The notes under the pieces were generated by a model that was not told the origin of the DNA, searched no databases, and was given only the letters and a program-made list of their open reading frames with translations. A program made the position numbers and the translations under genes. From Minisyncoccia bacterium (GTDB taxonomy: Bacteria; Patescibacteriota; Minisyncoccia; Phycocordibacterales; UBA918), in assembly GCA_041736805.1 (NCBI GenBank), contig JBGSSW010000011.1:18395-82394 (forward strand): a stretch of 64,000 nt of DNA, written 5' to 3'. Of the stretch, positions 2,281 through 19,567 are shown piece by piece; position 1 is the first letter of the stretch; each line of letters opens with the position of its first letter.

Positions 2281-2284
2281 ATTT

Positions 2285-3127: not shown

Positions 3128-3130
3128 AGA

Positions 3131-3704: not shown

Positions 3705-5057
3705 CTATTCCTCCAGCAAGGTAATCTGCTTGTCGTTCAGCACTAGTCTTGATCGTAAGTGTCCCATCAGTTCACGCTTCTCCAGTGGAGTACCCTCGCG
3801 GAGTACGTACTTCGCGTACTCTCTGGTTGCAATATCATCCTCGTCAATCTGCATCTTCGGCTTGCCTTTGGTCGCCAATCGTTGCAGTCGGTTGAATCGT
3901 TTAATTTCTTCTTCAAGTTTCATCCGCATACCAAGTTCGTTGATACTCACTTTGTCGATGACCTTGAAGAGTTCCTCCACCAGTTCTTCCTCACGGATGT
4001 ACTTGTTCTTGCAGTTTCTGTCTTTTGATTTTGAGCAAGAGTAGTAGATGTATTTGGCGTTCGTGCCGTCTTTTAGTTCTTTGTATTTTTCTTGCGCTGT
4101 TATCCCTGATCCGCACATACCGCAGGTGAAGAGTTTAGTGAAGGCGAACTCTCGGTTCCCTCGCACAATCTTATCTCGCTTCAGTTGCTCATTTACTTTC
4201 TTGAACAATTCTTCAGTGATAATAGGTTCATGTGCTCCTTGGTACCAGTTGCCACTGTTCTTTGGATATTCAAATGGTCCGTAGTAGATCGGCATTTGGA
4301 GCATGCGGTATACGCCACTTAAGGTGAGTGGTCGGTTTCCTCGCGTATGGAAGTTGAGATCAAAGCGGAGCCAGTTATATACCTTGCGCCCACTCCAGTG
4401 TTCATATGCCACCTTCTCAAACATTTGCTTTACGACCGGTGCACGCTCTGGATCTATGACGATCCGACACTTCCTGTCCATCAGCTTTTGATTGAGGTAC
4501 CCGAGTGGTGCCATGCCCGGCCATAGTCCCATCTCAACTCTTGTTCGTAGTCCTCGCTTCACGTTGATACCTCGGTTGTCGTTCTCAAGCTTTGCTTGTG
4601 ATCCGAGGATCATTAGGAGGAACTTCTCGTTGGGGTTGTTCCTAAAGCTCTGTCCAAAGGTACGTATCTCATGGAGCTTTCCCGCGTCCATCAAGTCCAC
4701 AATCTTTCCGAGGTCGCCTGCGTTTCTTGATATACGGTCTGGTGCCCAGGTGAGGATGCCGTTAAACTTGTTGTCTCTTAGTTCATCTATGATCTCGTTG
4801 AAGACCGGTCGTTGCCCAGTCTCCTTGGCTGAGTGTGATTCTCGCTTCATGGTCACGATCTCCAGACCCTCTCGTTCGGCGAGTTGGAGCATCTCACTGA
4901 TTTGTGAGTCGATGGACAGCACTTGCCGTTCCTCAGATTCACTACTTTTTCTTGCGTAGAGGCAGTATTTCACCCTTACAGGGATTGCTTCTGGTTTGAC
5001 CACCATTCCATGTGGCGCTTGTATTGTGTTATTCATACAGCTACATTGATGACGCAA
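3705..5057 (-). CDS. large serine recombinase (resolvase/invertase catalytic domain + recombinase domain + zinc ribbon)
   Basis: N-terminal YARKSSESEERQ..SIDSQ motif holds the catalytic serine. LTWAPDRISRN matches the resolvase R-x-SR motif. The C-terminal CGMCG...CSKSKDRNC is a zinc ribbon. The true start may be an internal Met (5036 or 5006). Confidence 0.85.
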   Translation of the reverse strand: MRHQCSCMNNTIQAPHGMVVKPEAIPVRVKYCLYARKSSESEERQVLSIDSQISEMLQLAEREGLEIVTMKRESHSAKETGQRPVFNEIIDELRDNKFNGILTWAPDRISRNAGDLGKIVDLMDAGKLHEIRTFGQSFRNNPNEKFLLMILGSQAKLENDNRGINVKRGLRTRVEMGLWPGMAPLGYLNQKLMDRKCRIVIDPERAPVVKQMFEKVAYEHWSGRKVYNWLRFDLNFHTRGNRPLTLSGVYRMLQMPIYYGPFEYPKNSGNWYQGAHEPIITEELFKKVNEQLKRDKIVRGNREFAFTKLFTCGMCGSGITAQEKYKELKDGTNAKYIYYSCSKSKDRNCKNKYIREEELVEELFKVIDKVSINELGMRMKLEEEIKRFNRLQRLATKGKPKMQIDEDDIATREYAKYVLREGTPLEKRELMGHLRSRLVLNDKQITLLEE

Positions 5058-5216
5058 ACCGCCCTAGGAGTCCAGAGCGTCCCGAGTGGGTAAGAGTTGG
5101 TAACCTTAGCCCATTAGGATTCTGATGTGTGCATATTTCTCTTTCGAATAAATGCACGGTGCGTCACAAATTCACGGTTTATATAAATACCAATACTGAT
5201 ACAATGTTTATTACAA

Positions 5217-7331: not shown

Positions 7332-10300
7332 CAGTAACGATGCCCCCCGAAGTTCTACCAAAGACCTCTGGGAAGTAAAGCTCTTCTGCACGAGCTGGAA
7401 GATGCTGGAAAGTACCTGGAATAAGTGCACGTAAGTAATACTCATACTCATATACACCTGGTTCCAGTCTTTCGACATAGAGAAACACTCTATCATCATG
7501 AGACTCAACGTGCGTTGGGTATAGTTTGCGATTTTCTTTTGAGTAAACGCCTCCAGAACTAAATGATCCGTATACCTGTGCTACTTGGGAATCGCTAAAT
7601 ATATTCTTTACTGAACCAAAAACACTCGCCGTAAAGTTTGAATTACCAGCGGACCATTCGTCATATACATCTTCTTGCTTATTCAATGACTGATCCTCAG
7701 TGCTCAAGTTAAAATTAACAATCTCAAACCCTGCTGGGATGAAGTCTTCGACCGCAACATTTTGATATTCGTCTGGAATAGTAATGGTCAATTTTCCACG
7801 GACGACATCTCCGACAGATACAGTTTGTAAACTTTCTGAATCACGCTCGTCACTAAGAGCATATAAATCTCTTGTTATAGTGATACCTTCGTCTCTTGGG
7901 GGGAGAGAATCAACAGGAAGGTAATACTTGAGCGACATGTCATAATACAAATTGTTCTCTCGACCATTCTTGTCTTCTTTTTCAAAAGCTAACGGTAGTA
8001 ACTTTTCTTTCGGTAATGCATCAATTGAAACAAAATGAGTAAACGTCTCGAAAACGGTCTTTGGATTAAATTCAAAACCAAATATCTCGACTCCATCTAG
8101 CAATCCTCGTAGGGTGAAGTGTGATTCAGTCTCGTGTTGCCATTTAAGATAATCAACCATGGCGCTCACTACTGTAAATGTATTGTGCGTACTGCCCCAA
8201 ACACCCTGATGATCACGGCTAGCGAGTAGCCACCTAAGCATATTTGGTAGAGTCTCATGTTCGTCTTCGTGAGCTGCAAATACTGCCACAGCAAGTGCTG
8301 TATTTTTAATAGGTGTCTCATAAAAGTCTCTATTTGAATGTTCGGTACTTGCGAGGTATGCTCCACGACCATCAATATCGATACGATTTTGGAATGCATC
8401 ATAAACCCTATTACGATCACTTCTACTGTAATCTTTAGATGTCAGGATTGCGAGGTAAGCAAGTGACATACTACTAATTTTCTCATTGAGGAAGGAGTCA
8501 TCTTTGATCAAAGTTATAACAATATCAGTAAGTGAGGTTTTGGTTTCTGGTGAAATCTTTCTGAGAACAGATTCTGCAAGAATCACTGTCTCGTTATTCT
8601 GATCTGGATATTGAGTATATAGTCGCTTTGTTTCAGATTCGATGTATCCAATACCTCGACTTAATACATCTTCACGTATTTCGTATCCAGCCATCTTTAA
8701 GTCATATAAAGCAGATACAACATGGATAGTAAGTGACAAGTTTGCATTCAGTCCTTTGTAGTATGCAAAACCACCACCAAGCGTTTGAGCTTCGTATACT
8801 TGTTTAAGACCATCAGTGACTACATTTTCAACTGTATACGTCACTCCATCGTGCTCGATAGTGTCAAATTCTCCTTCAACATTTGGCAATGTGAGTGCTT
8901 CTGTCAAAATACCAATAGTACTAAGCGAACTTGCCAATTGTTCACTGCAACCGTATGGATACGTAACCATGTACGACAACGCGTCAGTCATGAAGACTGC
9001 CATGGTAGCGTTAGCATTTATAGTGAGACCACCTTCACCATCAACTACTGTATCCGGTACATATAAATATTCTACGGCAGTGTCATCTTTTGTAGCATTT
9101 GCAGTTGCAACTGTTTCATAAGTCTTATTAGGTGTTATTGCAATTGATTGCTCTACACTATCAACAAAGGTATTAGCTTTATCAGAAGCAGTGAATGTAA
9201 ATACATGCTCACCAGCTCGCATTGTCTCTGGCGCTTCAACATCAAAGTAAACTGTTTTAGATTCTCCAGGGTTAATAAAGACAGACTCACTAGCATCACC
9301 CTTGAAGGCAAGTGTTTTACTCTCTAGAGTAACGGAAATCTCTTTACCGTCCGCTGTCTGATTAAATATTTTTGCTCCCAACGAGAAGACGTCCCCCGGT
9401 ACCACAAATCGTGGTTTAAGTGGTACAGCCATTAAATCTTTTTTGGTTGTAAATTCTTGATAATCAACACCCAGCTTAGTGTCTTTAGTAACACCTAGTG
9501 ATTCTATCTGCCACGTCGTCAAATTATCAGGTAGAGTGAAAGTAACACTCGCATCTCCGTTTTGATTAGTCTCTACCGATGCCTCCCAGAAAGCTGTATC
9601 CTTAAATACCCCTCGCTTTTTCTTGGCCAAGTCATCAGGCTCTGCTCCACCACCACCCTTAGTACCAAGAGGGATATCCACCTCGTGGAGAATATTTTTT
9701 ATATTACTTGCAGTGGTCACTGATAGTGGAAATCCGTTATAGAAAAATACGAGAGGATTTTTCTTTGGATTACCTTTTAGAGCAAGTACCGAAAGATCTG
9801 CAACAGCAACGGACACTTCGGCAGGGACACCTTGTCCTTGATGATTTTTAGTTTTAACTGTAAGTTTGACCTCCTCACCGGGTAAGTAGTGTGTTTTATT
9901 CGCAGTCACCTCCACTGAAAGCTCCTTCTCCTGCGTCCCAATATTGTAGTAAACGTTTCCGTATTTGACCTCAGGATCAGATGAAAGCAACAAGACTGAG
10001 ACATATACGTTAGGTGAATACTCACTTTTAATTGGGAACTTGTGGGAGTAAAGTCCTCCTATTACATCAACTATCCAATAGTCATACACTGTTCCGCGCT
10101 CTACTGAAATAAGTGCTTTTGCTTTTGGATATGGAGATTTGATTAAAACTGATGCTTCGTCGCCAACATCTAAATCAGTCTTATCGACTTCGAGATCGAG
10201 CTCATAATTATTATTTGGAGGAACAGTGACAGAGCCTGAACCATATATGTATACATTCGCAACAGTTTTAAGTTTATTGCCTTTATCGTCAGCTCCTGTC

Positions 10301-13300
10301 ACATGCACTTCGTACTGACCTTCAGTTGAAATCGAGAGATTTCCACTCCAGTCACCTTTGTTATCAGTCTTAACTTTTTCTCGATTAATCTCCGTTAGCT
10401 TTTTCTCAGACCGATAGTAAAAACCTCCGTCAACTTCTTGTCGTTTAAAAGTTTCCCATTCGACCTTGTAAAGGGTTTTTTCAATGTTGCCGATTGATAC
10501 GGGTTTTCCCTCCGTAGTAACAGTCTTCACACGAAGAGTGTTTGGAGAGTTAACACTTGTATAGTATTCATCTGTCTTCACGCCGAGATAAAATTCTCCC
10601 TTATGGACGACGAAAGATTTCTGTAGCGATACAGACCTGCCGTTAACGTCTTTTGCTGTTACTGACACCGTAACAAGCTTACTGCCTTCGCTCTCCACAT
10701 CATCAAAGTAGTCATCGAAATTGAACGTACGCTCAATAGTAGCCCGTCCATTTTCGTCAATCGTCGTCTCTCCTCTAAATAAGAAGTTGTCACCATAACC
10801 ACATGAGTAGCAGGAGTACCAATCACTACCGAAATTAAAGTAATCATCAGTGTATCTGTCGAAGTAATAGTCCTGCGCTGTAACAGCATAAGAAATTGCA
10901 CCCTCATCAAGTGGTACACCGAAATAGTAGTCTGCTTGAACATCAACCTTGAAGGTATCTCCATTTGTGTACTCCTCTTTATTTGTTGTAGCCTCTAGTT
11001 TGAATGCGGCTGGAACATATTCTTCAACATCAAAGTAAAAGCTCTGCCCGAACACTTCGATTCGGTAGGTTCCGAGAGGGGCATCACTCGGTATATCAAG
11101 TTTCGTTGAAAACGTTCCGTAAAGATTCTGTTCCAGATTTGTGTCGTAAATTCGAGCGCCTTGAGAATCAAATACTTCTAGAGATACCTTTTCTCTGTTC
11201 CAGACTTCATACTTTCCATCAAAACCAATGCGATCAATGCCTCGTATATTTACAGTGTGTCCAGGACGATAAATAGGCCTATCAGTATACACGTAGGTCT
11301 TGGAAGCATCTTGCGCAGGACTCGCATTACGTAGTGTGTCAGCCCAGTCAGTAATAACGGCGCTATCAAGTCCTGATTTAATCACTGCCCCACCTAATCC
11401 TTCATGAATCGCAACTCGTGCAATTCCTTGACCGTCAGTGACTCCTGAAGTTTTTTGTCCAAAATTACGATTGTACCCACCTTCAAATTGTGTGACCACT
11501 GCACCTGCAACTGGCAAAAGGGTCTTGTTGTTACTGATCCAATACAGGTTACTGGACGCACCCAACTCTTTCGTAAGGATGTTATCTTTACTTGGATTAC
11601 TGGAAACGCTCCAGGCTTCGTCAGAGTATTCGATCTCTTTTTTGCCTACGGCAAGATTCGTTACGCTTACATATGTTCTGTCAAATAATTGACGATTTTC
11701 ATATGTCTCTTTGTATAAAGGATTACTAAACGTCAATACGTAATGACCACGAGTATCAGAAAAATATTCAGTAAGATTAATTTGGAAGTAGTTATTGACC
11801 CAGTATCGAATCGGTAGTGGTATTTGCTTAGTGATTACTTCAATACATCCATCACTACGTGCGGGAGTATATTGATCATCGCGATCAATAGTTCGTGCAA
11901 GAAATGTCTCAGGGCTCATCTTGCAAATATGCATATCCACATACTCAAGATTCTCAACCGCGTACGTGAACTTAGACTTGTCCGGAGAGGTTACATTATA
12001 TTGCTGTTGCATATTATGGAACCGTGTGTACTGCTCTTTGGGTGGACTGGTTCTAAACGACAATTGATTTGATGCTTGCTGTCCAAAAACATCTACTGGT
12101 TTTACCTCTAAACTATAATTAGTCTCTGGTAGCAAACCATACGACAGCCGAGTTTCAAATTCTCCAGCTTGACATTTGTTATAAGAATTCTGAGATTCAA
12201 CATAGAAAGAATTAGACCAGCGCCCGAATACTATGTAGCCGTCAGTTTGTACATACGAATCTAGCCCGTCATCTTCAGGGTCTCGTAGAGGAGTGTTGGA
12301 ACAGATAGTTATTCCATCAAGATCAGCACTTGTTGATTGATTTTGAGGGAGTGAGCGGAGTATTTGGAATGCCGGATAACTCTTAAGTGCGATATTTATT
12401 GGCTCTGCATTGATACGAAAACCTTCCTTTGTAAGCACTTTCTTCAACTCAAGATTAAATGATTCGTTCACTCCGATCGCGCTTGGTTCAAAAGAAAATA
12501 TCAGTGTTTTTGTATCAGACTCTTTCTCACACGTTGATCCAAGTTGAATAGGTTCACCATTTTCGTCAGTCTTACATCGCTCTCCATAGGAAATATTTTT
12601 AAGCCCCTTAACTCCGATACTTGATTGATCTTTATCTATATCATCAAAAAAAGTTACTGTTACAGTGCCTTGTGGGTCAACTAAATCTGGACGAACGAGT
12701 GACGTACGATCTGACTGAGCAGTAACACTTTCAACGATATTAGCTACTGAAACTACGGTGTTTTTTCCCTCTTCTAAGTTCATTGTTCCGACAAAGGGTG
12801 TGGCGCCAGTCACAGATACTGAATAGGTGGTATCAAAATCCCAGAGTCGACTACGACCGTGAGCATCTTTTTTCTGATACACAAACAACTTACTCTTGTC
12901 TTCGTTTGTAATATATTTACGATCGCTTCTGTCATAGACAGTTACCTCACCGTATTCGACTTCGATTGAAACTTTACTGCCATCAGATTTTGAAACAGTA
13001 ATCTCCTTTTCAGTTTGACTTAAATCCACTGGCTGATTAAAAGCAATAATGATAGGTGAACTGTATCCGATTTGTTCTGTGGAGACATTTTCATAGCGAA
13101 GGGGGCGCGTTACAAAAGTATGGGTTACTGGAGCGACTGGCAGACCATCAAGAGAATAAAAACCACCCTTTACTTCAACTGTATATTTTGATGATGGAAT
13201 GAGAGTAGTTTCAGGTATAAATTGCAAATTTCTGGTACTAATCCATTTAAATTTACCTGGTGTTGGAGGAGATATGGTGATTGGTAGTTCAATTGATTCT

Positions 13301-13917
13301 TGCTCTGTTAGCGTTGTGAGTGGAACCATTGGACGATTGAAGACAATGGTGATTTCGCTATCTTCATGAGCTTCACTGAGTGAAGCTGGAAAAATTGTCT
13401 CAATTTTAGGATCTTCGTCAACGTAAAAATCTCCTGACATCTGGACAGAGCCCGTGTCCATATTGACTGCATAGTAGACTTTCGTACGAAGTGGTTTTTT
13501 TGGCTTAAATGAGACAACTCTTTCGAGATCCTCTGTCTGCCACTCTCCTTCGACTTCAGGACTAAAAGTAATGCTGGCACGCGCAACATCTTCGCTTACA
13601 CCTTCTGGGAGGTTGATTTGAATTGAAGCACTTTTTGATATTTTTTCCGGAACAAAGGAGTAAACATTTGTAAACTGCTTTACTGCCACATGCCTATCCT
13701 GCGTAGCATAAAAGAAAAGTGCTGCCCCAACAAAAATAAGAATTCCTAGAGCTATTAAAAATGGCGCCCTTTTACGTCCTAGCATTTTTAATGCATTTAG
13801 GAATTTCTGTTTAATTGATAGTTTTTCGGAGGTAGGAAGTACTGTCGGCAAAACTTGTTCAGTTGGTTGCGAATCAGGGACAGTGACTTTAGATGTAAAA
13901 TCTTCTTGTGAATCCAT
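7318..13917 (-). CDS. bacterial alpha-2-macroglobulin family protein (2199 aa) with thioester motif and N-terminal TM anchor
   Basis: MVTYPYGCSEQLASSL contains the CxEQ thioester signature. The size and repeated beta-rich (MG-like) domains fit the A2M family. The N-terminus has one TM helix (FLIALGILIFVGAALFFYA) and no lipobox. The gene pairs with a PBP gene. Confidence 0.75.
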   Translation of the reverse strand: MDSQEDFTSKVTVPDSQPTEQVLPTVLPTSEKLSIKQKFLNALKMLGRKRAPFLIALGILIFVGAALFFYATQDRHVAVKQFTNVYSFVPEKISKSASIQINLPEGVSEDVARASITFSPEVEGEWQTEDLERVVSFKPKKPLRTKVYYAVNMDTGSVQMSGDFYVDEDPKIETIFPASLSEAHEDSEITIVFNRPMVPLTTLTEQESIELPITISPPTPGKFKWISTRNLQFIPETTLIPSSKYTVEVKGGFYSLDGLPVAPVTHTFVTRPLRYENVSTEQIGYSSPIIIAFNQPVDLSQTEKEITVSKSDGSKVSIEVEYGEVTVYDRSDRKYITNEDKSKLFVYQKKDAHGRSRLWDFDTTYSVSVTGATPFVGTMNLEEGKNTVVSVANIVESVTAQSDRTSLVRPDLVDPQGTVTVTFFDDIDKDQSSIGVKGLKNISYGERCKTDENGEPIQLGSTCEKESDTKTLIFSFEPSAIGVNESFNLELKKVLTKEGFRINAEPINIALKSYPAFQILRSLPQNQSTSADLDGITICSNTPLRDPEDDGLDSYVQTDGYIVFGRWSNSFYVESQNSYNKCQAGEFETRLSYGLLPETNYSLEVKPVDVFGQQASNQLSFRTSPPKEQYTRFHNMQQQYNVTSPDKSKFTYAVENLEYVDMHICKMSPETFLARTIDRDDQYTPARSDGCIEVITKQIPLPIRYWVNNYFQINLTEYFSDTRGHYVLTFSNPLYKETYENRQLFDRTYVSVTNLAVGKKEIEYSDEAWSVSSNPSKDNILTKELGASSNLYWISNNKTLLPVAGAVVTQFEGGYNRNFGQKTSGVTDGQGIARVAIHEGLGGAVIKSGLDSAVITDWADTLRNASPAQDASKTYVYTDRPIYRPGHTVNIRGIDRIGFDGKYEVWNREKVSLEVFDSQGARIYDTNLEQNLYGTFSTKLDIPSDAPLGTYRIEVFGQSFYFDVEEYVPAAFKLEATTNKEEYTNGDTFKVDVQADYYFGVPLDEGAISYAVTAQDYYFDRYTDDYFNFGSDWYSCYSCGYGDNFLFRGETTIDENGRATIERTFNFDDYFDDVESEGSKLVTVSVTAKDVNGRSVSLQKSFVVHKGEFYLGVKTDEYYTSVNSPNTLRVKTVTTEGKPVSIGNIEKTLYKVEWETFKRQEVDGGFYYRSEKKLTEINREKVKTDNKGDWSGNLSISTEGQYEVHVTGADDKGNKLKTVANVYIYGSGSVTVPPNNNYELDLEVDKTDLDVGDEASVLIKSPYPKAKALISVERGTVYDYWIVDVIGGLYSHKFPIKSEYSPNVYVSVLLLSSDPEVKYGNVYYNIGTQEKELSVEVTANKTHYLPGEEVKLTVKTKNHQGQGVPAEVSVAVADLSVLALKGNPKKNPLVFFYNGFPLSVTTASNIKNILHEVDIPLGTKGGGGAEPDDLAKKKRGVFKDTAFWEASVETNQNGDASVTFTLPDNLTTWQIESLGVTKDTKLGVDYQEFTTKKDLMAVPLKPRFVVPGDVFSLGAKIFNQTADGKEISVTLESKTLAFKGDASESVFINPGESKTVYFDVEAPETMRAGEHVFTFTASDKANTFVDSVEQSIAITPNKTYETVATANATKDDTAVEYLYVPDTVVDGEGGLTINANATMAVFMTDALSYMVTYPYGCSEQLASSLSTIGILTEALTLPNVEGEFDTIEHDGVTYTVENVVTDGLKQVYEAQTLGGGFAYYKGLNANLSLTIHVVSALYDLKMAGYEIREDVLSRGIGYIESETKRLYTQYPDQNNETVILAESVLRKISPETKTSLTDIVITLIKDDSFLNEKISSMSLAYLAILTSKDYSRSDRNRVYDAFQNRIDIDGRGAYLASTEHSNRDFYETPIKNTALAVAVFAAHEDEHETLPNMLRWLLASRDHQGVWGSTHNTFTVVSAMVDYLKWQHETESHFTLRGLLDGVEIFGFEFNPKTVFETFTHFVSIDALPKEKLLPLAFEKEDKNGRENNLYYDMSLKYYLPVDSLPPRDEGITITRDLYALSDERDSESLQTVSVGDVVRGKLTITIPDEYQNVAVEDFIPAGFEIVNFNLSTEDQSLNKQEDVYDEWSAGNSNFTASVFGSVKNIFSDSQVAQVYGSFSSGGVYSKENRKLYPTHVESHDDRVFLYVERLEPGVYEYEYYLRALIPGTFQHLPARAEELYFPEVFGRTSGGIVTVTED

Positions 13918-13995
13918 AATATTGAGTAAATTATAGCATCTTACGCATAATCAAAATGATGATTTAGTCACAACTTAGTAACACGTTCACAACTT

Positions 13996-15528
13996 TTACC
14001 CCACCCGCTCTTTCTTAAACTCCTCCGCATACTTTTGCACGATATTGGCTGTGTCATCCTTCTCTTCAAGGTCAAACCAGAACTTTCCGTCCACGATGTG
14101 GATGCCATACCTGAAATCTTCCTTAGCGTTCGTATGCAGATGTTCTGTAGCCATGTCGGTCAGCTTCACGAGTTCGTGATTGAGAAGCATTACCTCGTCT
14201 TTGTACGATTCAATAAGCTCGTCATACCTTTCAGTAAGATCGGTATCAAATATATCTGACGCCTGCTTCCCGAGCTTCCGGAACTCGCAGAGGGTGTTGT
14301 ATTTCTCGACAGGCTTCGCATTCTTCTCGATGAACAGAGCGAGGTTCGAGAATGACAGAATCATCTCGACCTGTTTTTTGTATTCGTGCACGAACTCCAA
14401 ATCCTCCTTGCATGCATACAAGCTCTCACCCGTGAGCATCTCCACAACTCTCATTTCGCCGAACATGGACATCTCCGCTTCTTGCCGTTTCAGTTCCTTC
14501 GCGCAAAAGAGACTCGCAAAATACTTTCTGGTTTGCTCCATCTCAGCATACCAAATAGCGAACAGCTCCTTGTGGCTTTTTTTAGTGTTGCCGTTCCAAG
14601 TATCGAAGCGGTCACTTGCAAAGAATGGTGCAAAATCTTTGGTGAACAATCCGTTATCGAGCCATGAGTGAAGTGTCTCCCTAACCACATGCTCCATGGT
14701 CACGTCGTTGCCTGTAGCGTATTCCTCTATATTTTCCAGAACTTCGTCATCGTTCCGATCCTTGCACTTGATACGCGCATCGTGAGCAACTTTATACATA
14801 ATCTCCTTGAGCGGAAGCTCGGCGAAGAAGTCACCGATCATAAAGCCGTCCTTCTCCGTGCCACTGCGCATCTTTTTAATACCTTCGTAATACATGCGAG
14901 TGAAGATGGTATCGACGAGGGTGTCTTTGTCCTTCTTGCTAATCTTTCCGCCTTTGAACATTTCATAAAGGAGCGTGTGATCTTCCAGATATTGTTTGTT
15001 GTACCCCACAGAATCATCAAGTAGGACAAGGTCTTCTCGTATTTCCAGAGGTAAGTTGAAGAAAGTGAAGGTGTGGAGGACATGGCGGTACTCGAGGTAC
15101 GTATGAGCGAGAGCAAAGGAGAGACTTTCTTCCTTGGTGATGTTGTCCTGCATTAGACTGTTCACAGGTATGTCTGTCGTCTTCTTTAGATCAGCAAGAC
15201 AGTACGTGAGTATTCGCTCGTTCCTAACCAAGGACAACTCAGCATTGGTTGCAAACATTTGTGCATCAAGACGCATGGACTGTTCCAAGCGGACAATACC
15301 GATGTATCGGTTATATTCATTGATCTTTCCTGTATCTCCAGACCACTTTTGTGTTAGGGTATGAAGCTGCGAATCAGAGAAAATACTTGTACCAGTCTTT
15401 TCTCTATGTCTATCGTTATGCACAAGTGCAGTCACCCGTTCAAGCGGGGTCATGTTTGATCGCAATAAGATGTTGTTGAGGTTTTTCATACTATCTTGTC
15501 TTCTTGAGCATACTCTCAAGAAATTCAA
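13996..15528 (-). CDS. hypothetical protein (510 aa), acidic, no recognisable motif
   Basis: Long ORF in operon with the methyltransferases. The likely start is an internal Met (MKNLNN, ~15489). Confidence 0.5.
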   Translation of the reverse strand: MNFLRVCSRRQDSMKNLNNILLRSNMTPLERVTALVHNDRHREKTGTSIFSDSQLHTLTQKWSGDTGKINEYNRYIGIVRLEQSMRLDAQMFATNAELSLVRNERILTYCLADLKKTTDIPVNSLMQDNITKEESLSFALAHTYLEYRHVLHTFTFFNLPLEIREDLVLLDDSVGYNKQYLEDHTLLYEMFKGGKISKKDKDTLVDTIFTRMYYEGIKKMRSGTEKDGFMIGDFFAELPLKEIMYKVAHDARIKCKDRNDDEVLENIEEYATGNDVTMEHVVRETLHSWLDNGLFTKDFAPFFASDRFDTWNGNTKKSHKELFAIWYAEMEQTRKYFASLFCAKELKRQEAEMSMFGEMRVVEMLTGESLYACKEDLEFVHEYKKQVEMILSFSNLALFIEKNAKPVEKYNTLCEFRKLGKQASDIFDTDLTERYDELIESYKDEVMLLNHELVKLTDMATEHLHTNAKEDFRYGIHIVDGKFWFDLEEKDDTANIVQKYAEEFKKERVG

Positions 15529-15685
15529 CTCGTTCCTTCAGCTCGGTGTTGGCGATGTTCCTTGAAAGGGTTGAAGCGAGCTTAGCAATCATCGATGCCT
15601 GTTTGAACGATATCTCGCGACTCACCACTTTGCGGAGGGTGTCAGAGAGAATGTTGTTTATTTCTTCTAAATTAATTGATTCCAT
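15491..15685 (-). CDS. small hypothetical protein (64 aa), predicted helical
   Basis: ORF packed between two operon genes, overlapping both ends by a few bp. Confidence 0.3.
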   Translation of the reverse strand: MESINLEEINNILSDTLRKVVSREISFKQASMIAKLASTLSRNIANTELKERVEFLESMLKKTR

Positions 15686-15686
15686 A

Positions 15687-16061
15687 TTAGTGATGTTCTA
15701 CGATCTCAAACCACGCTCGTACCTCGTGTGCTCGGCCGCTCTTGATGATGTTCTTGTACAGAGCAAAGATGACGTTTGGCGTGAGTTTGCGTGCCCAGGC
15801 GTTTAGATCTTTGGTTAGACCGTCTTTCTCAAGACGTTTGTTCCAGTCGGTAAGGGTGCCGACATCGACCTCATACTTCTTCGAGAAGTCGAGCTGGGTC
15901 TTGAGCGTGAGCAGTTCAAACACCGTTTCCTCCTCGATACCAAACTTTTCAAGCGCTACTCTCGGCTGTCCTTTGAGAAATGAAGGTAGAGACTTCCAAA
16001 GAGCGTAGGTTGTGTATACCTGGCTTTTATACGTATCTTTGGAAAAATCTTCTTCATTCAT
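15687..16061 (-). CDS. small HTH-like protein (124 aa), resembles phage small-terminase/transposase-type HTH
   Basis: The segment FSKKYEVDVGTLTDWNKRLE has the pattern of an HTH followed by W-x-[KR]-R. It lies inside a mobile-looking operon. Confidence 0.35.
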   Translation of the reverse strand: MNEEDFSKDTYKSQVYTTYALWKSLPSFLKGQPRVALEKFGIEEETVFELLTLKTQLDFSKKYEVDVGTLTDWNKRLEKDGLTKDLNAWARKLTPNVIFALYKNIIKSGRAHEVRAWFEIVEHH

Positions 16062-16065
16062 ATGC

Positions 16066-16815
16066 TTATATCTTCACCGCCTTCGTGCCAGTGAGTTTTT
16101 CAAGTCGCTTGAGTGACGCTTCCACGTATGCCTCATCAAGCTCAATGCCAATGCACTTTCGACTCAAGTGCTCGCACGCGACAGCCGTTGACCCACTTCC
16201 AAGAAAAGGGTCGTAAACAACGTCGCCAACCTTCGTTGAGTTAGGGATAATCTTTCGCAAAAGACCCACAGGCTTCTGTGTTGGATGTAGTTTCGACCGT
16301 GATGGTCGAGGGTGGTAGATAACATTCTTCGCTTTGGCACGTTCCATCTTGTGCTTCCCAAACCAGCCGTAGGCAATGAGTTCGTACAGGGACAGGTAAT
16401 CCTTCCGGCTCATGACGGGCTGGTTCTTGAGCCAGATGATCATTTGGCTGTAGTAGAAGCCAGCAGACTTCATGCCCGAGCGAAGACTCGGGAACATTGA
16501 GTCAGCATTGAAGATATACACTGCGTTGTATTCGGTGAGATATGGGACAACGATTCCAAGATACTTGCGGGTGAATTCCTCGTATTCTACTTCACTCTGT
16601 AGGTGGTCGCCCATGATTGCTTTCGTTTCGTCCGTACCGATTTTTACGAACCCTTTCTTGTTCTCGACATAAGCAACGCCATAAGGCGGATCGCTGACCA
16701 CTGCTCGGATCTTATGTTGACCAATGACCTTGCCGACAAACTCTCTATCAAGCGAATCACCGCAGGCGATGATGTGACCACCGACCTTGAAGATATCTCC
16801 TTTAATTATTTTCAT
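16066..16815 (-). CDS. beta-class DNA methyltransferase (N6-adenine / N4-cytosine type)
   Basis: Motif IV VSDPPYGV precedes motif I DPFLGSGSTAVA, which is the beta-class order. The start is taken at the internal MKIIKGD; the longer ORF would overlap the upstream gene by 107 bp. Confidence 0.8.
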   Translation of the reverse strand: MKIIKGDIFKVGGHIIACGDSLDREFVGKVIGQHKIRAVVSDPPYGVAYVENKKGFVKIGTDETKAIMGDHLQSEVEYEEFTRKYLGIVVPYLTEYNAVYIFNADSMFPSLRSGMKSAGFYYSQMIIWLKNQPVMSRKDYLSLYELIAYGWFGKHKMERAKAKNVIYHPRPSRSKLHPTQKPVGLLRKIIPNSTKVGDVVYDPFLGSGSTAVACEHLSRKCIGIELDEAYVEASLKRLEKLTGTKAVKI

Positions 16816-18046
16816 AGATTCGCTTTGCTTTAAGTCCGGTAAACTTCTCCCATCGATCGATGAGGATGGTTGCGAAGATGAGATCCTGCTCAACTCCTCG
16901 CCACGCACGATTCAGTTCCTCGCACGCAATCAAGTCGCTACCGCTTCCAGCAAATCCGCTGTATACGATATGGAGCGGAGCGCTGCACCTTTTGAACGGC
17001 TTTTCGTTTAGGGTCACTGGCTTCTGGGTAGGATGCTGGTATGACTGGGCGCTGTCTCGCTTCTCAATCCAGATATCGATCATGTCGAATATTTCGTCAT
17101 GCACCTGATTGCCGGTGGTCACTTCCTGATTGAGGATTTCGTTCACGTTATTCATTCCCGTATTGAGATACGGCTTGCCGATCGTGCCGTACACGCATGG
17201 CTCGTACACCTTGTTGAAGGCAATTTTGTGCGTTGGGTTCTGGTTGTTCTTAAGCCAGAGGCAGACACGCTTGGCGTTCACCAGGTGTTTCTGATACAAG
17301 CTCTGCACCATTCCTATGTACGAGGAGTCGCACCAGTAGAAGTAGTGGGCATTCTTTTGGCTTATACCCTTCGCCACCTCTATGCTCTTGTCCAAGAAGT
17401 CTCGGTATTCACTGTCTTTCTTGGAGTCATCTTTGCTCGAATATGATCCCTGATACTTCTCTTTGTTGCCGACGCCTTTGGAGTAGTCCAAGCCGATGTT
17501 GTATGGAGGATCACAGTACACGATGTCCGCCAGGTCTCCGTTCATGAGCTTCTGCACGAGTTCACCATCAGTAGAGTCCCCGACGAGCAGTCGATGTTTG
17601 CCGAGTTCCCAGATTTCTCCAGTTTTAACTTTCGGCGTAATCATATCCTTGAGTGCCTTTTCGAAATTGAAGTCGTCATCGACCACATCAACATCGTCGA
17701 ATAAGCTTTGGAGCTCTTCGTCCCCAAAGCCAACATCGAGGAGCAGGTTCATATCGAACTCCTTGAGGAGCTCCTCGTTCCAAGAGCCGGTGTTTTTATT
17801 GAGACGGAGATTTAATTCTCGTTCCTCTTCGAGTGAAATCTCACGCGAAGGAATCATACACTCGACCTCCTTAATGCCGAGGTCGGCATACACCGTGACT
17901 CGTTGTTCACCGCCAATTATAGTATTGGCTCGTGAACCGATGTTGAGAACTATCGGAACAACTGTCCCAAATTCATGCACCGACTTCTCCAAGTCTCTGC
18001 GCTCGTTTTCGCTTAACTTGCGTGGATTGTATCCGTTCTTGATCAA
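16802..18046 (-). CDS. ParB-like nuclease domain fused to a beta-class DNA methyltransferase
   Basis: The N-terminus GYNPRKLSENERRDLEKSVHEFGTVVPIVLN matches the ParB/Srx domain. It is followed by CDPPYNIG (motif IV) and SGFAGSGSDLIA (motif I). Confidence 0.8.
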   Translation of the reverse strand: MIKNGYNPRKLSENERRDLEKSVHEFGTVVPIVLNIGSRANTIIGGEQRVTVYADLGIKEVECMIPSREISLEEERELNLRLNKNTGSWNEELLKEFDMNLLLDVGFGDEELQSLFDDVDVVDDDFNFEKALKDMITPKVKTGEIWELGKHRLLVGDSTDGELVQKLMNGDLADIVYCDPPYNIGLDYSKGVGNKEKYQGSYSSKDDSKKDSEYRDFLDKSIEVAKGISQKNAHYFYWCDSSYIGMVQSLYQKHLVNAKRVCLWLKNNQNPTHKIAFNKVYEPCVYGTIGKPYLNTGMNNVNEILNQEVTTGNQVHDEIFDMIDIWIEKRDSAQSYQHPTQKPVTLNEKPFKRCSAPLHIVYSGFAGSGSDLIACEELNRAWRGVEQDLIFATILIDRWEKFTGLKAKRIYENN

Positions 18047-18274
18047 GTCGCCGAGCTTGAAAGTGGCAGGTGACCAGGTGATCTTTTTTTTTCATGGGGT
18101 TAATTTCAGAAGAGGATCTAATTAAGCTCTTCTACCCCTATTCGTCATCCGATGACCAAATGACAATTGGTTTTCAGCGAGTGCGAGTGAATGACAAAAA
18201 ACTTCCTAAAACAAAAGACCTTTCACTACTTGAGTGAAAGGTCTTTTGTATCGTCATCTTTAACGAAATGACTA

Positions 18275-18982
18275 TCAGTCTCCTCGGATGACAAAGAGGG
18301 TCATGTATCCATGCCGACGAGTGTACCTTGGGATTGGATTTTTGGTCATGCCGAAAAATTGTTTCAGTCCTTCGTTGAGTTCATATTTAATGTTGCGATG
18401 GAGGCGGAAATCCCAGTGTTCTTTAGTGAGTGCACCACCGTGGTCAGCGATTGCCCGAAGCATTTCCCATTTCATGTCTGGTCGCATGGTTCGTTCATTG
18501 ACGAAGCCCATATCTTTGAAATCAAACTTCTTCGTCTGTTTACCTGGGTACGAGACACGAACAACGTGTCCATCGATAAATTGCATCTCAAGCGATTCCC
18601 ATGATGCGTTTCCGGGTAGCTGGTATGAAGCTTTCACATACTTTGTTTCAGCCGCTGGGATAGCGTCATCCACAGTGTATTCCTGAACAGATCGGTCGAG
18701 TGCGGTCATAATGAGGTCTTCGTCTGCACCCTCATAGAGAGAAGGAATGAACGGGGGCGCTATCTTTGGAACCATCTGAATTCTGCTCATCATTTCAAGT
18801 TGTGGTCGAACGCTTTCCATCACTTTATGCATATTTTCCATCGGTTTTCTCAGTGTCTCTACAAGTTTCTGAGATTGCTCGGCTGTTCTATTCAACGTCG
18901 AAAGGAACGACCCATCCGAGAAGACGGTTGTGGGTGTGTATCCATCCTTTGCTTGTTGAAGTATCAATTCGCCGACTGTCAT
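18275..18982 (-). CDS. hypothetical protein (235 aa), first gene of the block-2 operon
   Basis: ORF with no recognisable motif. Confidence 0.45.
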   Translation of the reverse strand: MTVGELILQQAKDGYTPTTVFSDGSFLSTLNRTAEQSQKLVETLRKPMENMHKVMESVRPQLEMMSRIQMVPKIAPPFIPSLYEGADEDLIMTALDRSVQEYTVDDAIPAAETKYVKASYQLPGNASWESLEMQFIDGHVVRVSYPGKQTKKFDFKDMGFVNERTMRPDMKWEMLRAIADHGGALTKEHWDFRLHRNIKYELNEGLKQFFGMTKNPIPRYTRRHGYMTLFVIRGD

Positions 18983-19235
18983 ACCTCCATATTATATCTT
19001 AAAAATTACTTCACGAAAATTGGCATTTGTTGGCATTTGGGACACACTCCAAAACGCCCTTGGTGTGTCTCATCTGTCTCATTCTCGAGAAAGAGACCCC
19101 GACCCACAAACCTCAAATTCTTCAAGGAAAAAGTGCTAGAATACCCTTATGTTGCTTGGAGCTGTGGGTACCATACCCGAGTACACCGCAGCAGTAGAAA
19201 GAAAAGGCTTGCCTGCGTACTGCTGCGGGAACCAG

Positions 19236-19305
19236 AACGATGTGAGTTTACGAACGAGTGGCAAAACAATGTTTAGACATTGTTTTGCGGGTTGAGAGTA
19301 CTTAG
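19236..19305. repeat. structured repeat family A, copy 1 (GAACGATGTGAGTTTACGAACGAGTGGCAAAACAATGT-TTAG-ACATTGTTTTGCGGGTTGAGA)
   Basis: ~88% identical to 37321–37382. It contains an 11-bp hairpin CAAAACAATGT/ACATTGTTTTG. The second copy has base changes in the stem that keep the pairing, with one mismatch. Confidence 0.6.
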
Positions 19306-19567
19306 ATTTTTATAAGCGTGCGCGACATTGTTTTCTTATGAGCTGGCGAACTATAAAACAAGAAGTACCCTTGTGGTGAAATAAAAAGCTTAGTAACTCG
19401 TGACCGCATGCGGGAGCCGCAGAGATGTCTTCTTTTTCTTCAAAAAAGAAGACTGCGAGGTGGTTTCAAGAAAGCTTAATATATTTGCAGTCGAAGACGA
19501 ATAAATATACCAAGTGGTCTGTGACCGCTAGAGTGACCTAGCTCATCTGATGAATGATTATGTACAC

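What the first reader, a model, noticed from the sequence alone, without database searches (positions are those of the whole stretch)
13950..19310. Second compositionally foreign block: minus-strand operon of unknowns with a ParB-fused methyltransferase and a second methyltransferase, possibly a prophage remnant or unnamed defence cassette
Six co-directional genes with overlapping stop/start codons (18982 down to 13996). The GC is visibly higher than the flanks. Two beta-class DNA methyltransferases sit back to back; the first is fused to a ParB/Srx nuclease-like domain, a fusion typical of phages and conjugative elements. The flanking 235-aa and 510-aa proteins and the 64-aa gene have no recognisable motifs. 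The 124-aa protein has an HTH resembling small-terminase or transposase HTHs. No restriction endonuclease, ATPase or helicase is apparent, so the methyltransferases look orphan or anti-restriction.
Basis: partly seen in the sequence, partly recalled or inferred. Interest (0 to 1): 0.6.

Follow-up and report, generated by a model that had tools for sequence, protein, structure and literature searches.

The report
Core operon of tRNA-Ser integrative island
The GC-rich block is not a stray prophage scrap: it is the strongly conserved core gene set (two DNA methylases, a small-terminase-like DNA binder and proteins of unknown fold) of a 17.6-kb mobile island that carries its own serine recombinase, sits at a serine tRNA gene, and recurs in hundreds of ultra-small Paceibacteria (CPR) genomes.

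Summary
Six minus-strand genes lie at 13996-18982, with GC 0.467 against 0.40 and GC3 0.48-0.62 against 0.27-0.37. There are two beta-class DPPY methyltransferases, the first fused to ParB. Corrections: the 235-aa gene is a separate unit followed by a strong terminator; the large protein is 497 aa; the ParB-methyltransferase is frameshifted at an A9 run.

The block is one arm of a larger island, about 1609-19189. Its order is: left-end motif, p235, ParB-MTase, MTase, p124, p64, p497, cargo, large serine recombinase (3705-5006), more cargo, right-end segment, tRNA-Ser. The five-gene operon keeps the same order in every Paceibacterota locus fetched with p497 that held the region. A co-oriented recombinase lies downstream in at least 20 of them. 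Flanks and cargo differ.

ParB-MTase, MTase, p124, p64 and the recombinase are under strong purifying selection (dN/dS 0.02-0.07). p497 and p235 evolve about four times faster. p124 is related to small-terminase-like HTH proteins. Sibling islands carry ParB-MTase/TerS/TerL, the order seen in Streptococcus phages. p497 is a closed family with a confident model and no fold match.

Best reading: a phage-derived DNA-modification and DNA-recognition module serving island transfer. This function is inferred, not shown.

The parts
19166..19189 (-). Left-end motif GCGGTGTACTCGGGTATGGTACCC, the island's left boundary (attL side). The conserved non-coding leader continues to 18983.
   Evidence: It has one copy in the window, with 0 expected by chance, and one copy per related locus, always upstream of the cassette. 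Near-identical islands with unrelated left flanks start homology exactly at GCGG. It does not fold as a stable RNA (z = +0.86), so it is probably a DNA site.
18275..18982 (-). p235, a fast-evolving first gene with an invariant N-terminus (MTVGEL), a variable coiled middle and a conserved C-terminal domain of about 120 aa. It is replaced by unrelated genes (310-619 aa) in some islands.
   Evidence: No family hit. A DNA-binding (winged-helix-like) C-terminus is my reading of the sequence pattern only and was not tested.
18207..18249 (-). Intrinsic terminator after p235: a 17-bp stem followed by UUUUGUUUU.
   Evidence: Fold of -30 kcal/mol, z = -6.25, with 0 of 200 shuffles as stable.
18108..18133 (-). 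Stem-loop (AGAAGAG...CTCTTCT) 13 nt upstream of the ParB-MTase ATG.
   Evidence: It is present in relatives with compensatory stem variants (GGGAAG/CTTCCC and GGAGAG/CTCTCC). The fold of the window copy alone is not significant (z = -1.1).
16802..18095 (-). ParB_N-fused beta-class (DPPY) DNA methyltransferase, frameshifted at an A9 run (18084-18092). The readable ORF runs 16802-18046.
   Evidence: PF02195 plus PF01555, phrog_498 at 1.4e-80, PADLOC MTase_II. The frameshift is seen. Identity to relatives is 67-91%. dN/dS is 0.03-0.05.
16066..16815 (-). Second beta-class (DPPY) DNA methyltransferase, 249 aa, without a ParB domain.
   Evidence: PF01555 at 3e-32 and phrog_498 at 9.6e-62. Identity to relatives is 76-88%. 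dN/dS is 0.04-0.07.
15687..16061 (-). p124, an all-helical HTH protein related to small-terminase-like proteins.
   Evidence: Identity across islands is 63-94%. The family has 507 clusters. The AF2 model has pLDDT 79 and 8 helices, with no PDB fold hit. hhalign against a 131-aa sibling-island protein gives probability 96.9% and E = 2e-10. That protein hits TerS PHROGs at 1e-5.
15491..15685 (-). p64, a small protein of unknown function.
   Evidence: Identity across islands is 56-94%, and it always lies between p124 and p497. No family hit.
13996..15489 (-). p497, a protein of unknown function. Its model is confident and mostly alpha-helical, and it evolves faster than its neighbours.
   Evidence: AF2 pLDDT 88 and pTM 0.78. 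No match in PDB or BFVD by Foldseek and none by profile against PDB. A closed family of 206 representatives among 1.84 billion proteins. No Pfam hit even in distant members. Identity across islands is 36-66%.
5217..13917 (.). Cargo slot 1 in this copy: an alpha-2-macroglobulin-like gene (7318-13917, -) and a class A PBP gene (5217-7331, +), both of host-like composition.
   Evidence: Pfam hits. GC3 is 0.31-0.32. In relatives this slot spans 0.16-9.8 kb of unrelated genes.
3705..5120 (-). Large serine recombinase (433 aa from ATG 5006) with a conserved leader of about 110 nt.
   Evidence: Resolvase, Recombinase and Zn_ribbon_recom domains. CcrB, XisF, SprA and A118-type hits. A copy 72-92% identical lies co-oriented downstream of p497 in at least 20 loci. 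The leader is conserved. dN/dS is 0.02-0.03.
1711..3661 (-). Cargo slot 2: a 176-aa gene, a 280-aa Hypoth_Ymh/TIGR02391 gene and a 189-aa gene.
   Evidence: GC3 is 0.49-0.52. In L091 the 176-aa and Ymh genes follow a 92%-identical recombinase at 89-91% identity. L007 and L032 carry a SduA_C (Shedu) gene in this position.
1609..1730 (-). Right-end segment that abuts the 3' end of tRNA-Ser (attR side).
   Evidence: The pattern ..GGGTC.C-hairpin-TGGG..(20-25 nt)..TTGTC.|(TG)GCGGAG, with CCGATA in the four other loci, is shared by five independent loci. A second tRNA-Ser in L031 without this segment shows a plain terminator.
1521..1608 (+). tRNA-Ser, the proposed integration target. Its 3' end faces the island.
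   Evidence: ARAGORN and Rfam. The same arrangement occurs in L007, L039, L031 and L092.

Best explanation
The block is the conserved core operon of an integrative genomic island found in Paceibacterota (CPR/Patescibacteria).

Shown. In this window the island spans about 1609-19189. It begins with a conserved end motif (GCGGTGTACTCGGG...). It then carries p235 as a separate unit, followed by the operon ParB-MTase / MTase / p124 / p64 / p497. Next come a variable cargo slot, a large serine recombinase and a second cargo slot. It ends with a conserved segment that abuts the 3' end of a tRNA-Ser gene. The operon, the recombinase and the end motif recur together in many genomes whose flanks and cargo are unrelated.

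Inferred mechanism.
- The serine recombinase integrates and excises the island at the (TG)GCGG of the tRNA-Ser acceptor end.
- The operon descends from the phage gene block 'ParB-methyltransferase, second methyltransferase, small terminase, large terminase'.
- The two orphan N6-adenine-type methyltransferases pre-methylate island DNA so that it survives restriction when it enters a new cell. The ParB domain may load the enzyme on DNA.
- The small-terminase-like p124, with p64 and p497, recognises island DNA and hands it to a transfer route. That route would most likely be the capsids of a helper phage, as in phage satellites. It could otherwise be a DNA export or uptake pathway.
- p497 sits where the large terminase sits in sibling islands, but it is unrelated to terminase. 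Its activity is unknown.
- In this particular copy the ParB-MTase start is frameshifted at an A9 tract. The enzyme is therefore N-terminally truncated, switched off, or expressed through slippage.
For: - Co-linearity. In every fetched locus that spans the region, the five genes keep the same order and lengths. These are the 30 genome loci found with p497 plus context look-ups. Flanks are unrelated.
- Recombinase linkage. A recombinase 72-92% identical lies co-oriented 0.16-9.8 kb downstream of p497 in at least 20 loci.
- Sharp left end. Pairs of islands 95-99% identical (L012/L019, L020/L021, L033/L035) have unrelated left flanks, and their homology starts exactly at GCGG. The motif is single-copy in each locus.
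- Independent ascertainment. A metagenome scan with the left-end motif found 62 further loci. Of about 25 with enough downstream sequence, 13 have the cassette, 5 have a divergent version and 7 have none.
- Right end. Five loci share tRNA-Ser facing the island together with the right-end segment. One unoccupied tRNA-Ser serves as a contrast.
- Composition. GC3 is 0.48-0.62 for the cassette and 0.57 for the recombinase, against 0.27-0.37 for host genes.
- Selection. dN/dS is 0.02-0.07 with dS above 1 for ParB-MTase, MTase2, p124, p64 and the recombinase. Cassette GC ranges from 0.31 to 0.53 across hosts.
- Phage ancestry. Full-length ParB-MTase homologues occur in 239 phage records. Streptococcus phage Javan159 has ParB-MTase / MTase / small ORFs / TerS / TerL / portal. 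Sibling island L075 has ParB-MTase / TerS-like / TerL-like (phrog_38, 1.7e-31), and L091 and L100 have ParB-MTase followed by TerS-like proteins.
- p124. Its profile matches a TerS-like sibling-island protein at probability 96.9% and E = 2e-10.
- Cargo is accessory or defence-like: Shedu, Hypoth_Ymh, type I and type III restriction genes, RHS toxin, DGR, PemK.
- Precedent. Orphan mobile-element methyltransferases aid establishment against restriction (PMC7736820). ParB-N6N4 methyltransferase fusions are enriched in prophages (PMC12704722).
Against: - No att site has been demonstrated. No empty site or circular junction was recovered for this window. The two ends share only a short repeat, (TG)GCGG.
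- tRNA-Ser was found near only 5 islands. Several loci have 3-8 kb to the right of the recombinase without it.
- Homology between islands stops at the recombinase stop codon, not at a recognisable site.
- Related islands with the same end motif lack the cassette: L075 (86% recombinase), L056/L104 (63% recombinase) and L092 (no recombinase found). The cassette is therefore common but not indispensable.
- Neither p124 nor p497 has a fold match to terminase subunits. p124 itself hits no TerS model directly.
- The cassette is absent from IMG/VR and from deposited phages, and no helper phage is known.
- No replication, relaxase or capsid gene was identified.
- The A2M/PBP cargo has host composition, which was not expected for DNA that arrived with the island.
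- The methyltransferases' targets and any anti-restriction effect are untested.
Confidence: 0.5

Rival explanations
1. The block is an unconventional restriction-modification or other defence/addiction module that the island carries to stabilise itself. The two methyltransferases would each modify one strand of an asymmetric site. p497, possibly with p64, would be the unrecognised effector nuclease or toxin, and p124 would be the controller protein.
For: - Two adjacent beta-class methyltransferases are typical of type IIS-like systems (my own knowledge).
- The methyltransferases are far more conserved than p497 (76-91% against 36-66%). This resembles the usual contrast between methyltransferases and restriction enzymes.
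- The best PADLOC models are type II methyltransferases.
- The other island cargo is defence-like.
- p497 has many invariant polar and aromatic residues, as an enzyme would.
Against: - p497 matches no nuclease family, motif or fold.
- Its model is mostly helical and lacks the beta-sheet core of PD-(D/E)xK, HNH or GIY-YIG enzymes.
- p124 is related to TerS-like proteins, not to Xre-type controller proteins.
- Sibling islands have a real TerS and TerL in the same position.
- The ParB-MTase fusion is characteristic of phages, not of restriction-modification systems.
- This copy has a frameshifted ParB-MTase but an intact p497. That would be hazardous if p497 were the cognate nuclease.
Confidence: 0.2
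2. The block is a decaying prophage or satellite fragment with no present function, left beside an unrelated recombinase.
For: - No structural, replication or lysis genes are present.
- The ParB-MTase start is frameshifted in this copy.
- Gene order resembles the front of a phage late operon.
Against: - The operon is intact, with constant lengths, in every fetched locus that spans it, and it belongs to families of hundreds of clusters.
- dN/dS is 0.02-0.07 with saturated dS, across hosts whose GC ranges from 0.31 to 0.53.
- Linkage to the same recombinase and the same end motif is recurrent.
- Near-identical copies sit in different contexts.
Confidence: 0.07
3. The block is an epigenetic regulatory module. 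The orphan methyltransferases would methylate host DNA to control gene expression, switched on and off by the A-tract (a phasevarion), with p124 as a transcription factor. Its mobility would be incidental.
For: - A homopolymeric A9 tract at the start of the ParB-MTase gene causes a frameshift that one slipped base would correct.
- The methyltransferases are orphan and under very strong constraint.
- A stem-loop with compensatory variants lies just upstream of the start codon.
Against: - The A-tract is unique to this copy. Relatives read GCAAAAGAAAAG, so phase variation is not a family trait.
- This reading does not explain p64 and p497, the TerS/TerL siblings, or the linkage to a recombinase and the end motifs.
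Confidence: 0.08

Closest known systems
Phage-inducible chromosomal islands and other phage satellites (PICI, P4-like)
   Same: - Size of 10-18 kb.
- A site-specific recombinase gene lies towards one end (separated from the tRNA-Ser junction by the second cargo slot), and the island is inserted at a conserved chromosomal site (here tRNA-Ser).
- No capsid or tail genes.
- A small-terminase-like DNA-recognition protein.
- Variable hotspots filled with defence-type cargo.
   Different: - The recombinase is a large serine recombinase, not the usual tyrosine integrase.
- No primase/replicase, repressor or capsid-size-redirection genes were recognised.
- No helper phage is known, and the cassette is absent from viral collections.
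- The position of the large terminase is taken by p64 and p497, which have unknown folds.
Phage late-operon head: ParB-fused N6/N4 methyltransferase, second methyltransferase, TerS, TerL (for example Streptococcus phage Javan159)
   Same: - The same order of the first two genes, followed by a small HTH protein and a protein of about 500 aa.
- The ParB-MTase is a full-length homologue at 28-32% identity (phrog_498).
   Different: - p124 is only distantly TerS-like.
- p497 is not a terminase: it has no P-loop, is helical, and shows no profile relation.
- No portal or head genes follow.
- In the example phage the second methyltransferase is a C5-cytosine enzyme. Here it is a paralogous beta-class enzyme.
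Serine-recombinase islands and transposons (SCC elements with CcrAB/CcrC, Tn4451/Tn5397, SPbeta/A118-type prophages)
   Same: - The recombinase has a three-domain large-serine-recombinase architecture, and its best family hits are CcrB, XisF, SprA and A118.
- The islands carry variable cargo.
- Tandem arrays occur in which a second recombinase gene abuts the next island's end.
   Different: - The target is the 3' end of a tRNA gene, which is unusual for serine recombinases (my own knowledge).
- No imperfect inverted repeat typical of attP/attB was identified.
- The accessory core genes are unrelated to those of SCC or Tn4451.
Orphan anti-restriction methyltransferases of mobile elements (M.EcoGIX, M.BceJIII)
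   Same: A methyltransferase encoded by a mobile element without a partner nuclease, proposed to protect incoming DNA (PMC7736820).
   Different: - No sequence relationship was tested here.
- Those enzymes act on single strands during conjugative entry. Substrate, motif and timing are unknown here.

Membership tests
Beta-class N6/N4 DNA methyltransferase (PF01555) | Match to the family model above its curated cut-off. | tested here: met
   112.8 bits and 65.1 bits against a cut-off of 26.7.
Beta-class N6/N4 DNA methyltransferase (PF01555) | The catalytic (D/S)PP(Y/F) motif lies N-terminal to the FxGxG SAM-binding motif. | tested here: met
   DPPY precedes GSGS in both proteins, read from the translations.
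Beta-class N6/N4 DNA methyltransferase (PF01555) | Methyl transfer to DNA at a defined motif. | not testable with these tools
   Requires a methylome or an enzyme assay.
ParB-fused phage/plasmid methyltransferase (phrog_498 type) | An N-terminal ParB/Srx fold joined to a PF01555 domain in one polypeptide. | tested here: met
   ParB_N at 3.6e-5 (24.2 bits, just below the 26.3 cut-off). phrog_498 at 1.4e-80 spans residues 2-409. Relatives of 431 aa carry both Pfam domains. In this copy the first 16-17 codons are out of frame.
Type II (or IIS) restriction-modification system | A cognate restriction endonuclease encoded beside the methyltransferase(s). | tested here: not met
   No nuclease family, PADLOC REase model or nuclease fold was found for p235, p124, p64 or p497. 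A novel nuclease cannot be excluded.
Known multi-gene defence systems with methyltransferases (BREX, DISARM and others in PADLOC) | The signature partner proteins, such as PglZ, BrxC or DrmA/B. | tested here: not met
   PADLOC hits only MTase_II and orphan-MTase models.
Prophage | Capsid, portal, tail and lysis genes. | tested here: not met
   No PHROG structural hit in the block. The island's other genes are A2M, PBP, the recombinase and small unknowns. The cassette is absent from IMG/VR and from deposited phages.
Phage satellite (PICI-like) | A site-specific recombinase and a fixed chromosomal attachment site. | tested here: inconclusive
   The recombinase is present. Five loci lie at tRNA-Ser with shared end sequences. 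No excision product was observed.
Phage satellite (PICI-like) | A packaging-redirection function (TerS or equivalent). | tested here: inconclusive
   p124 is related to a TerS-like protein by hhalign (96.9%). It has no direct TerS model hit and no fold hit.
Phage satellite (PICI-like) | Its own replication module, and induction by a helper phage. | not testable with these tools
   No primase or Rep domain was recognised. Helper dependence needs an experiment.
Integrative conjugative or mobilisable element | A relaxase with oriT (and a T4SS/T4CP in the case of an ICE). | tested here: not met
   No relaxase or coupling-protein domain in the island. T4SS_pilin-like genes lie just outside the left end in this window only.
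Large-serine-recombinase integrative element | A recombinase with Resolvase, Recombinase and zinc-ribbon domains. | tested here: met
   9.7e-19, 3.4e-14 and 1.3e-9.
Large-serine-recombinase integrative element | The same element occurs in different genomic contexts. | tested here: met
   L012/L019, L020/L021 and L033/L035 are 95-99% identical yet have unrelated left flanks.
Large-serine-recombinase integrative element | Defined attL and attR sites with a common core and half-site symmetry. | tested here: inconclusive
   (TG)GCGG occurs at both junctions and the end segments are conserved. No dyad symmetry, empty site or circle junction was found.
Terminase large subunit (as proposed for the 510-aa protein) | A Walker A/B ATPase domain plus an RNase-H-like nuclease domain. 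| tested here: not met
   No P-loop. The model is mostly helical. No PHROG or Pfam hit. hhalign against the TerL-like protein of sibling island L075 gives probability 0.2%.

The most novel reading that the evidence does not exclude
The island family is a self-contained, CPR-specific gene-transfer vehicle. In it, p64 and p497 (a fold with no known relative) have replaced the large terminase as a new kind of DNA-handling machine, working with a terminase-small-subunit-like protein and a ParB-loaded methyltransferase. The orphan LOOT RNA, present in 10 of 17 related islands, would be its regulatory or cis-acting RNA. If so, this would be the first described dedicated route of horizontal transfer, and a first biological context for LOOT RNA, in ultra-small Patescibacteria.
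Probability: 0.15. Interest if true: 0.8.

Novelty: new variant of a known kind. Interest (0 to 1): 0.55.

Why it matters
Mobile elements of the Candidate Phyla Radiation are almost undescribed. Two full-text searches for such elements, and a closer look at one study of horizontal transfer in Patescibacteria, turned up no description of this island.

A recurrent island with sharply bounded ends and its own large serine recombinase would explain how these tiny genomes exchange defence and surface genes. Its two cargo slots add to that picture.

It could also supply parts for genetics in organisms that are very hard to manipulate: a recombinase with candidate att sequences, and methyltransferases that may help DNA evade restriction.

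The work places three conserved protein families of unknown function (p124, p64, p497) and the orphan LOOT RNA in a concrete, testable context. It also turns two 'foreign blocks' of this window into one element.

Tried and rejected
- **Exact-protein look-ups.** The large protein with the TTG or ATG start is not on record. The flanking pilin gene and the 176-aa gene found only contigs identical to the window, so no empty site was recovered.
- **Profile searches with p497.** No hit against PDB sequences. Pfam scans of ten distant, longer p497 relatives also gave nothing.
- **p497 as terminase or as a relative of sibling-island proteins.** Rejected by hhalign.
- **Viral origin.** p497 is absent from IMG/VR, and p497 and p124 are absent from deposited phages.
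- **Left-end motif as a structured RNA or a tRNA fragment.** Its fold is no better than shuffles, and ARAGORN and Rfam find nothing there.
- **Recombinase stop codon as the right end of the island.** Homology between islands does stop there. However, the 176-aa and Ymh genes travel with the recombinase in L091. In addition, a conserved segment abuts tRNA-Ser. I therefore place the end at about 1609.
- **Inverted repeats between the two ends.** None found by eye. A loose search for the ACTCGGG-type motif was too noisy to use.
- **LOOT RNA in the window.** Not found, even at E up to 1.
- **Supplement of the paper that defined LOOT.** Not held.

Full report
**1. The observation**

- Domain scans confirm two PF01555 N6_N4 methyltransferases. 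The first also has a ParB_N domain, and phrog_498 covers both of its domains at 1.4e-80.
- In both proteins DPPY precedes the C-terminal GSGS motif, which is the beta-class order.
- The 235-, 64- and 497-aa proteins match nothing in Pfam, PHROGs, PADLOC or NCBIfam. No nuclease, ATPase or helicase model is hit.

The compositional claim survives computation.
- GC is 0.467, rank 2 of 237 5-kb windows.
- GC3 is 0.48-0.62, against 0.27-0.37 in host genes.

Four corrections are needed.
- Only the two methyltransferase genes overlap. The other junctions are gaps of 1-4 nt.
- The 235-aa gene is a separate unit followed by a strong terminator (z = -6.25).
- The large protein most likely starts at ATG 15489 and is 497 aa.
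- The ParB-MTase gene is frameshifted. Its ATG (18095-18093) is followed by A9 and is out of frame. Relatives read ATG GCA AAA GAA AAG ATC and encode 431 aa. A Logan assembly of SRR28170465 is 100% identical across this region, including the A9 run.

**2. The block is conserved as a unit, in unrelated surroundings**

- The 497-aa protein has at least 133 relatives at 38-85% identity, all about 495 aa long.
- Context look-ups and a scan of species-representative genomes gave 30 loci in MAGs labelled Paceibacterota, Parcubacteria, Vogelbacteria, Nomurabacteria, Minisyncoccia and the like.
- Wherever the contig spans the region, the order ParB-MTase / MTase / 124 / 64 / ~495 is the same, with the same gene lengths. 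Flanking genes differ completely.
- Conservation is uneven. Identity is 67-91% for ParB-MTase, 76-88% for MTase2, 63-94% for p124 and 56-94% for p64. It is only 36-66% for p497 and 40-68% for p235. In some loci p235 is replaced by unrelated genes of 310-619 aa.
- Cassette GC ranges from 0.31 to 0.53 and roughly tracks its host.
- dN/dS is 0.02-0.07 with saturated dS for the conserved genes. dN of p497 and p235 is about four times higher.

These are long-resident, functional genes, not a remnant.

**3. It is one arm of a recombinase island**

- The ORF at 3705-5057 is a large serine recombinase with Resolvase, Recombinase and Zn-ribbon domains. It resembles CcrB, XisF, SprA and A118 integrase.
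- A copy 72-92% identical lies co-oriented downstream of p497 in at least 20 loci. The distance varies from 0.16 to 9.8 kb.
- The interval holds unrelated cargo: an RHS toxin, a DGR, ABC transporters and type III-like restriction genes. In this window it holds an alpha-2-macroglobulin/PBP pair of host-like GC3.
- The recombinase and the three genes beyond it share the cassette's GC3.

**4. The ends**

*Left end.*
- Islands 95-99% identical to each other (L012/L019, L020/L021, L033/L035, and the L027/29/30 group) have unrelated left flanks.
- Their homology begins exactly at GCGGTGTACTCGGGTATGGTACCC.
- This motif is single-copy in each locus. In the window it lies at 19166-19189.
- It does not fold as a stable RNA.

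*Independent sample.*
- A metagenome scan with 18 nt of the motif returned 62 more loci.
- About 25 of them have enough downstream sequence to judge. Thirteen carry the cassette, five carry a divergent version and seven carry none.

*Right end.*
- Homology between islands stops at the recombinase stop codon. That is not the end of the island, for two reasons.
- First, in L091 a 92%-identical recombinase is followed by the same 176-aa and Hypoth_Ymh genes as in the window, at 89-91% identity.
- Second, in five independent loci (window, L007, L039, L031, L092) a tRNA-Ser gene lies on the opposite strand with its 3' end facing the island. It is preceded by a shared segment ...GGGTC.C-hairpin-TGGG..(20-25 nt)..TTGTC.|(TG)GCGGAG. 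The four loci other than the window also share CCGATA within it.
- A second tRNA-Ser in L031 without this segment shows the unoccupied state: a plain terminator next to TGGCGGAG.
- Many left flanks are a terminator-like hairpin plus T-run directly before GCGG.

I infer integration at the tRNA-Ser acceptor end, with a short (TG)GCGG repeat at both junctions. On this reading the window's island is 1609-19189, or 17.6 kb. I found no empty site, no circle junction and no half-site symmetry, so this step is not shown.

*Tandem islands.* In several loci the left-end motif lies inside the 3' end of another, divergent serine-recombinase gene (L037/L018, L039, L041, L082, L089). This suggests islands inserted in tandem.

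**5. What the genes are**

*ParB-MTase.*
- It belongs to a family with full-length homologues at 28-32% identity in 239 phage and 109 plasmid records.
- In Streptococcus phage Javan159 the order is ParB-MTase, second methyltransferase, three small ORFs, TerS, TerL, portal.

*Sibling islands.* These share the same end motif and related recombinases.
- L075 carries ParB-MTase, a TerS-like protein and a TerL-like protein (phrog_38, 1.7e-31).
- L091 and L100 carry ParB-MTase followed by TerS-like proteins (phrog_4044, 4102 and 24579, at about 1e-6).

*p124.*
- It hits no TerS model directly.
- Its family profile matches a 131-aa L091 protein at probability 96.9% and E = 2e-10. That protein hits TerS PHROGs at 1e-5.
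- The AF2 model (pLDDT 79) is an eight-helix bundle with an HTH and has no PDB match.

*p497.*
- The model is confident (pLDDT 88, pTM 0.78) and mostly helical, with helices up to 50 residues long and one beta-hairpin.
- It has no P-loop.
- It has no match in PDB or BFVD, and none by profile against PDB sequences.
- An exhaustive profile search found only 206 representatives among 1.84 billion proteins, most of similar length and the rest apparent fragments.
- It shows no relation to the sibling TerL-like protein.

*Viral collections.* The cassette is absent from IMG/VR and from deposited phages.

**6. Mechanism**

*Shown:* a recurrent, sharply bounded island with its own serine recombinase, whose most common core is this operon.

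*Inferred:*
- The operon is a derivative of the phage 'DNA modification plus packaging initiation' block.
- The orphan DPPY methyltransferases methylate island DNA so that it survives restriction in a new host. There is precedent for mobile-element methyltransferases that aid establishment (PMC7736820). ParB-N6N4 methyltransferase fusions are enriched in prophages (PMC12704722).
- p124, with p64 and p497, recognises island DNA and delivers it to a transfer route. A helper phage's capsids are the most likely route, by analogy with phage satellites. Satellites have the same size, a recombinase gene near one end, a TerS-type gene and defence-rich cargo hotspots.

*Against:* no helper phage, no replication gene, cassette-less siblings (L075, L056/L104, L092), and no biochemical handle on p497.

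I put about 0.8 on 'core operon of a serine-recombinase island', and about 0.35-0.4 on the specific modification-plus-packaging role. I report 0.5 overall.

*Rivals:*
- An unconventional restriction/addiction module with p497 as effector (0.2).
- An epigenetic phase-variable regulator (0.08).
- A dead remnant (0.07).

**7. Novelty and score**

- The parts are ordinary kinds: orphan phage-type methyltransferases, an HTH protein, a serine recombinase, a tRNA-linked island.
- The combination is not. It is restricted to Paceibacteria, it carries three conserved families of unknown function, and one of these has no detectable fold relative.
- It is not described in the literature I could search.
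- I rate it a new variant of a known kind, with interest 0.55.

Noticed in passing
L002 13036-13165, L012 12019-12145, L020 12486-12612, L009, L010, L011 16558-16679, L030, L029, L075, L091 (Rfam coordinates of those loci): LOOT RNA (Rfam RF03000, 74-85 bits against a gathering score of 46) lies inside the cargo region of 10 of 17 related islands scanned, including the cassette-less sibling L075. In several loci it sits in a piece of about 290 bp that is 85-95% conserved, directly upstream of a 226-aa/265-aa gene pair on the opposite strand. The window's island has no copy. This gives an orphan RNA motif a mobile-element context.
   Followed up: partly
window 18084-18095 (minus strand): In this copy the ParB-MTase start is ATG followed by A9, which is out of frame. 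A8 or A11 would restore the frame. Relatives have GCAAAAGAAAAG here. This could be a fixed inactivating mutation, a slippage-prone switch, or a site rescued by transcriptional slippage. The run is identical in the Logan contig from run SRR28170465.
   Followed up: partly
window 5217-13917: The alpha-2-macroglobulin-like gene (2199 aa) and its class A PBP partner lie between the island's core operon and its recombinase. They have host-like GC3 (0.31-0.32), unlike the rest of the island (0.48-0.62). In most relatives the cargo in this slot has island-like GC. How host-like genes came to sit inside the island is unexplained.
   Followed up: partly
window 1711-3661; L091 13195-14121: A three-gene set follows the recombinase: a 176-aa gene, a 280-aa Hypoth_Ymh/TIGR02391 gene and a 189-aa gene. 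The first two recur at 89-91% identity behind a 92%-identical recombinase in L091. L007 and L032 carry a SduA_C (Shedu) gene in the same slot. This may be a defence-type cargo.
   Followed up: partly
window 19190-19420; left flanks of L002, L009, L010, L011, L020, L025, L028, L030: A variable unit of about 200-230 nt lies just outside the left-end motif. It begins with GCGGAG.., and in L011 and L020 its first 18 nt equal the reverse complement of a tRNA-Ser 3' end. It contains a long stem whose two arms co-vary between loci (GGTGAGATTC/GAATCTCACC, GGAGGGATTTG/CAAATCCCTCC, GCAGAATA/TATTCTGC). It may be a scar of earlier insertions at tRNA-Ser or a structured element. The Logan contigs break at 19377-19405, inside this unit.
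   Followed up: partly
L016, L017, L029, L032, L033, within about 150 nt after the p497 stop: Five islands carry a conserved leader of about 70 nt (..AACGATACCCGACCTCT..GGGTGTCGGGACCCAGTTCTTTC..). It follows a good promoter-like sequence (TTGACA-17-TAAAAT in L016) and precedes a cargo gene. It has obvious internal complementarity. Rfam finds no family there. It may be an undescribed cis-regulatory RNA.
   Followed up: no
L037/L018, L039 4103-5701, L041 3285-4982, L082, L089: A second, divergent large serine recombinase (532-565 aa) lies immediately upstream of the island, and its last codons run into the left-end motif. The window's motif still encodes the same peptide tail (RCTRVWYP..*). This suggests tandem islands, or that the attachment site overlaps a recombinase 3' end.
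   Followed up: partly
window 19568-21548: Two T4SS_pilin-domain genes, one of them also carrying an SLT lytic transglycosylase domain, lie just outside the island's left end, followed by tRNA-Tyr at 21769. L083 has distant (30% identical) relatives of these genes on the same side; they were not detected beside the islands in the other loci.
   Followed up: no
window 1521-1608 and L039 18062-18149: ARAGORN calls a tRNA-Ser with anticodon ACT in both loci. This anticodon is unusual. The call was not checked further.
   Followed up: no
window 40001-42000: Another stretch of elevated GC (0.47-0.48) in the window. It was not examined.
   Followed up: no
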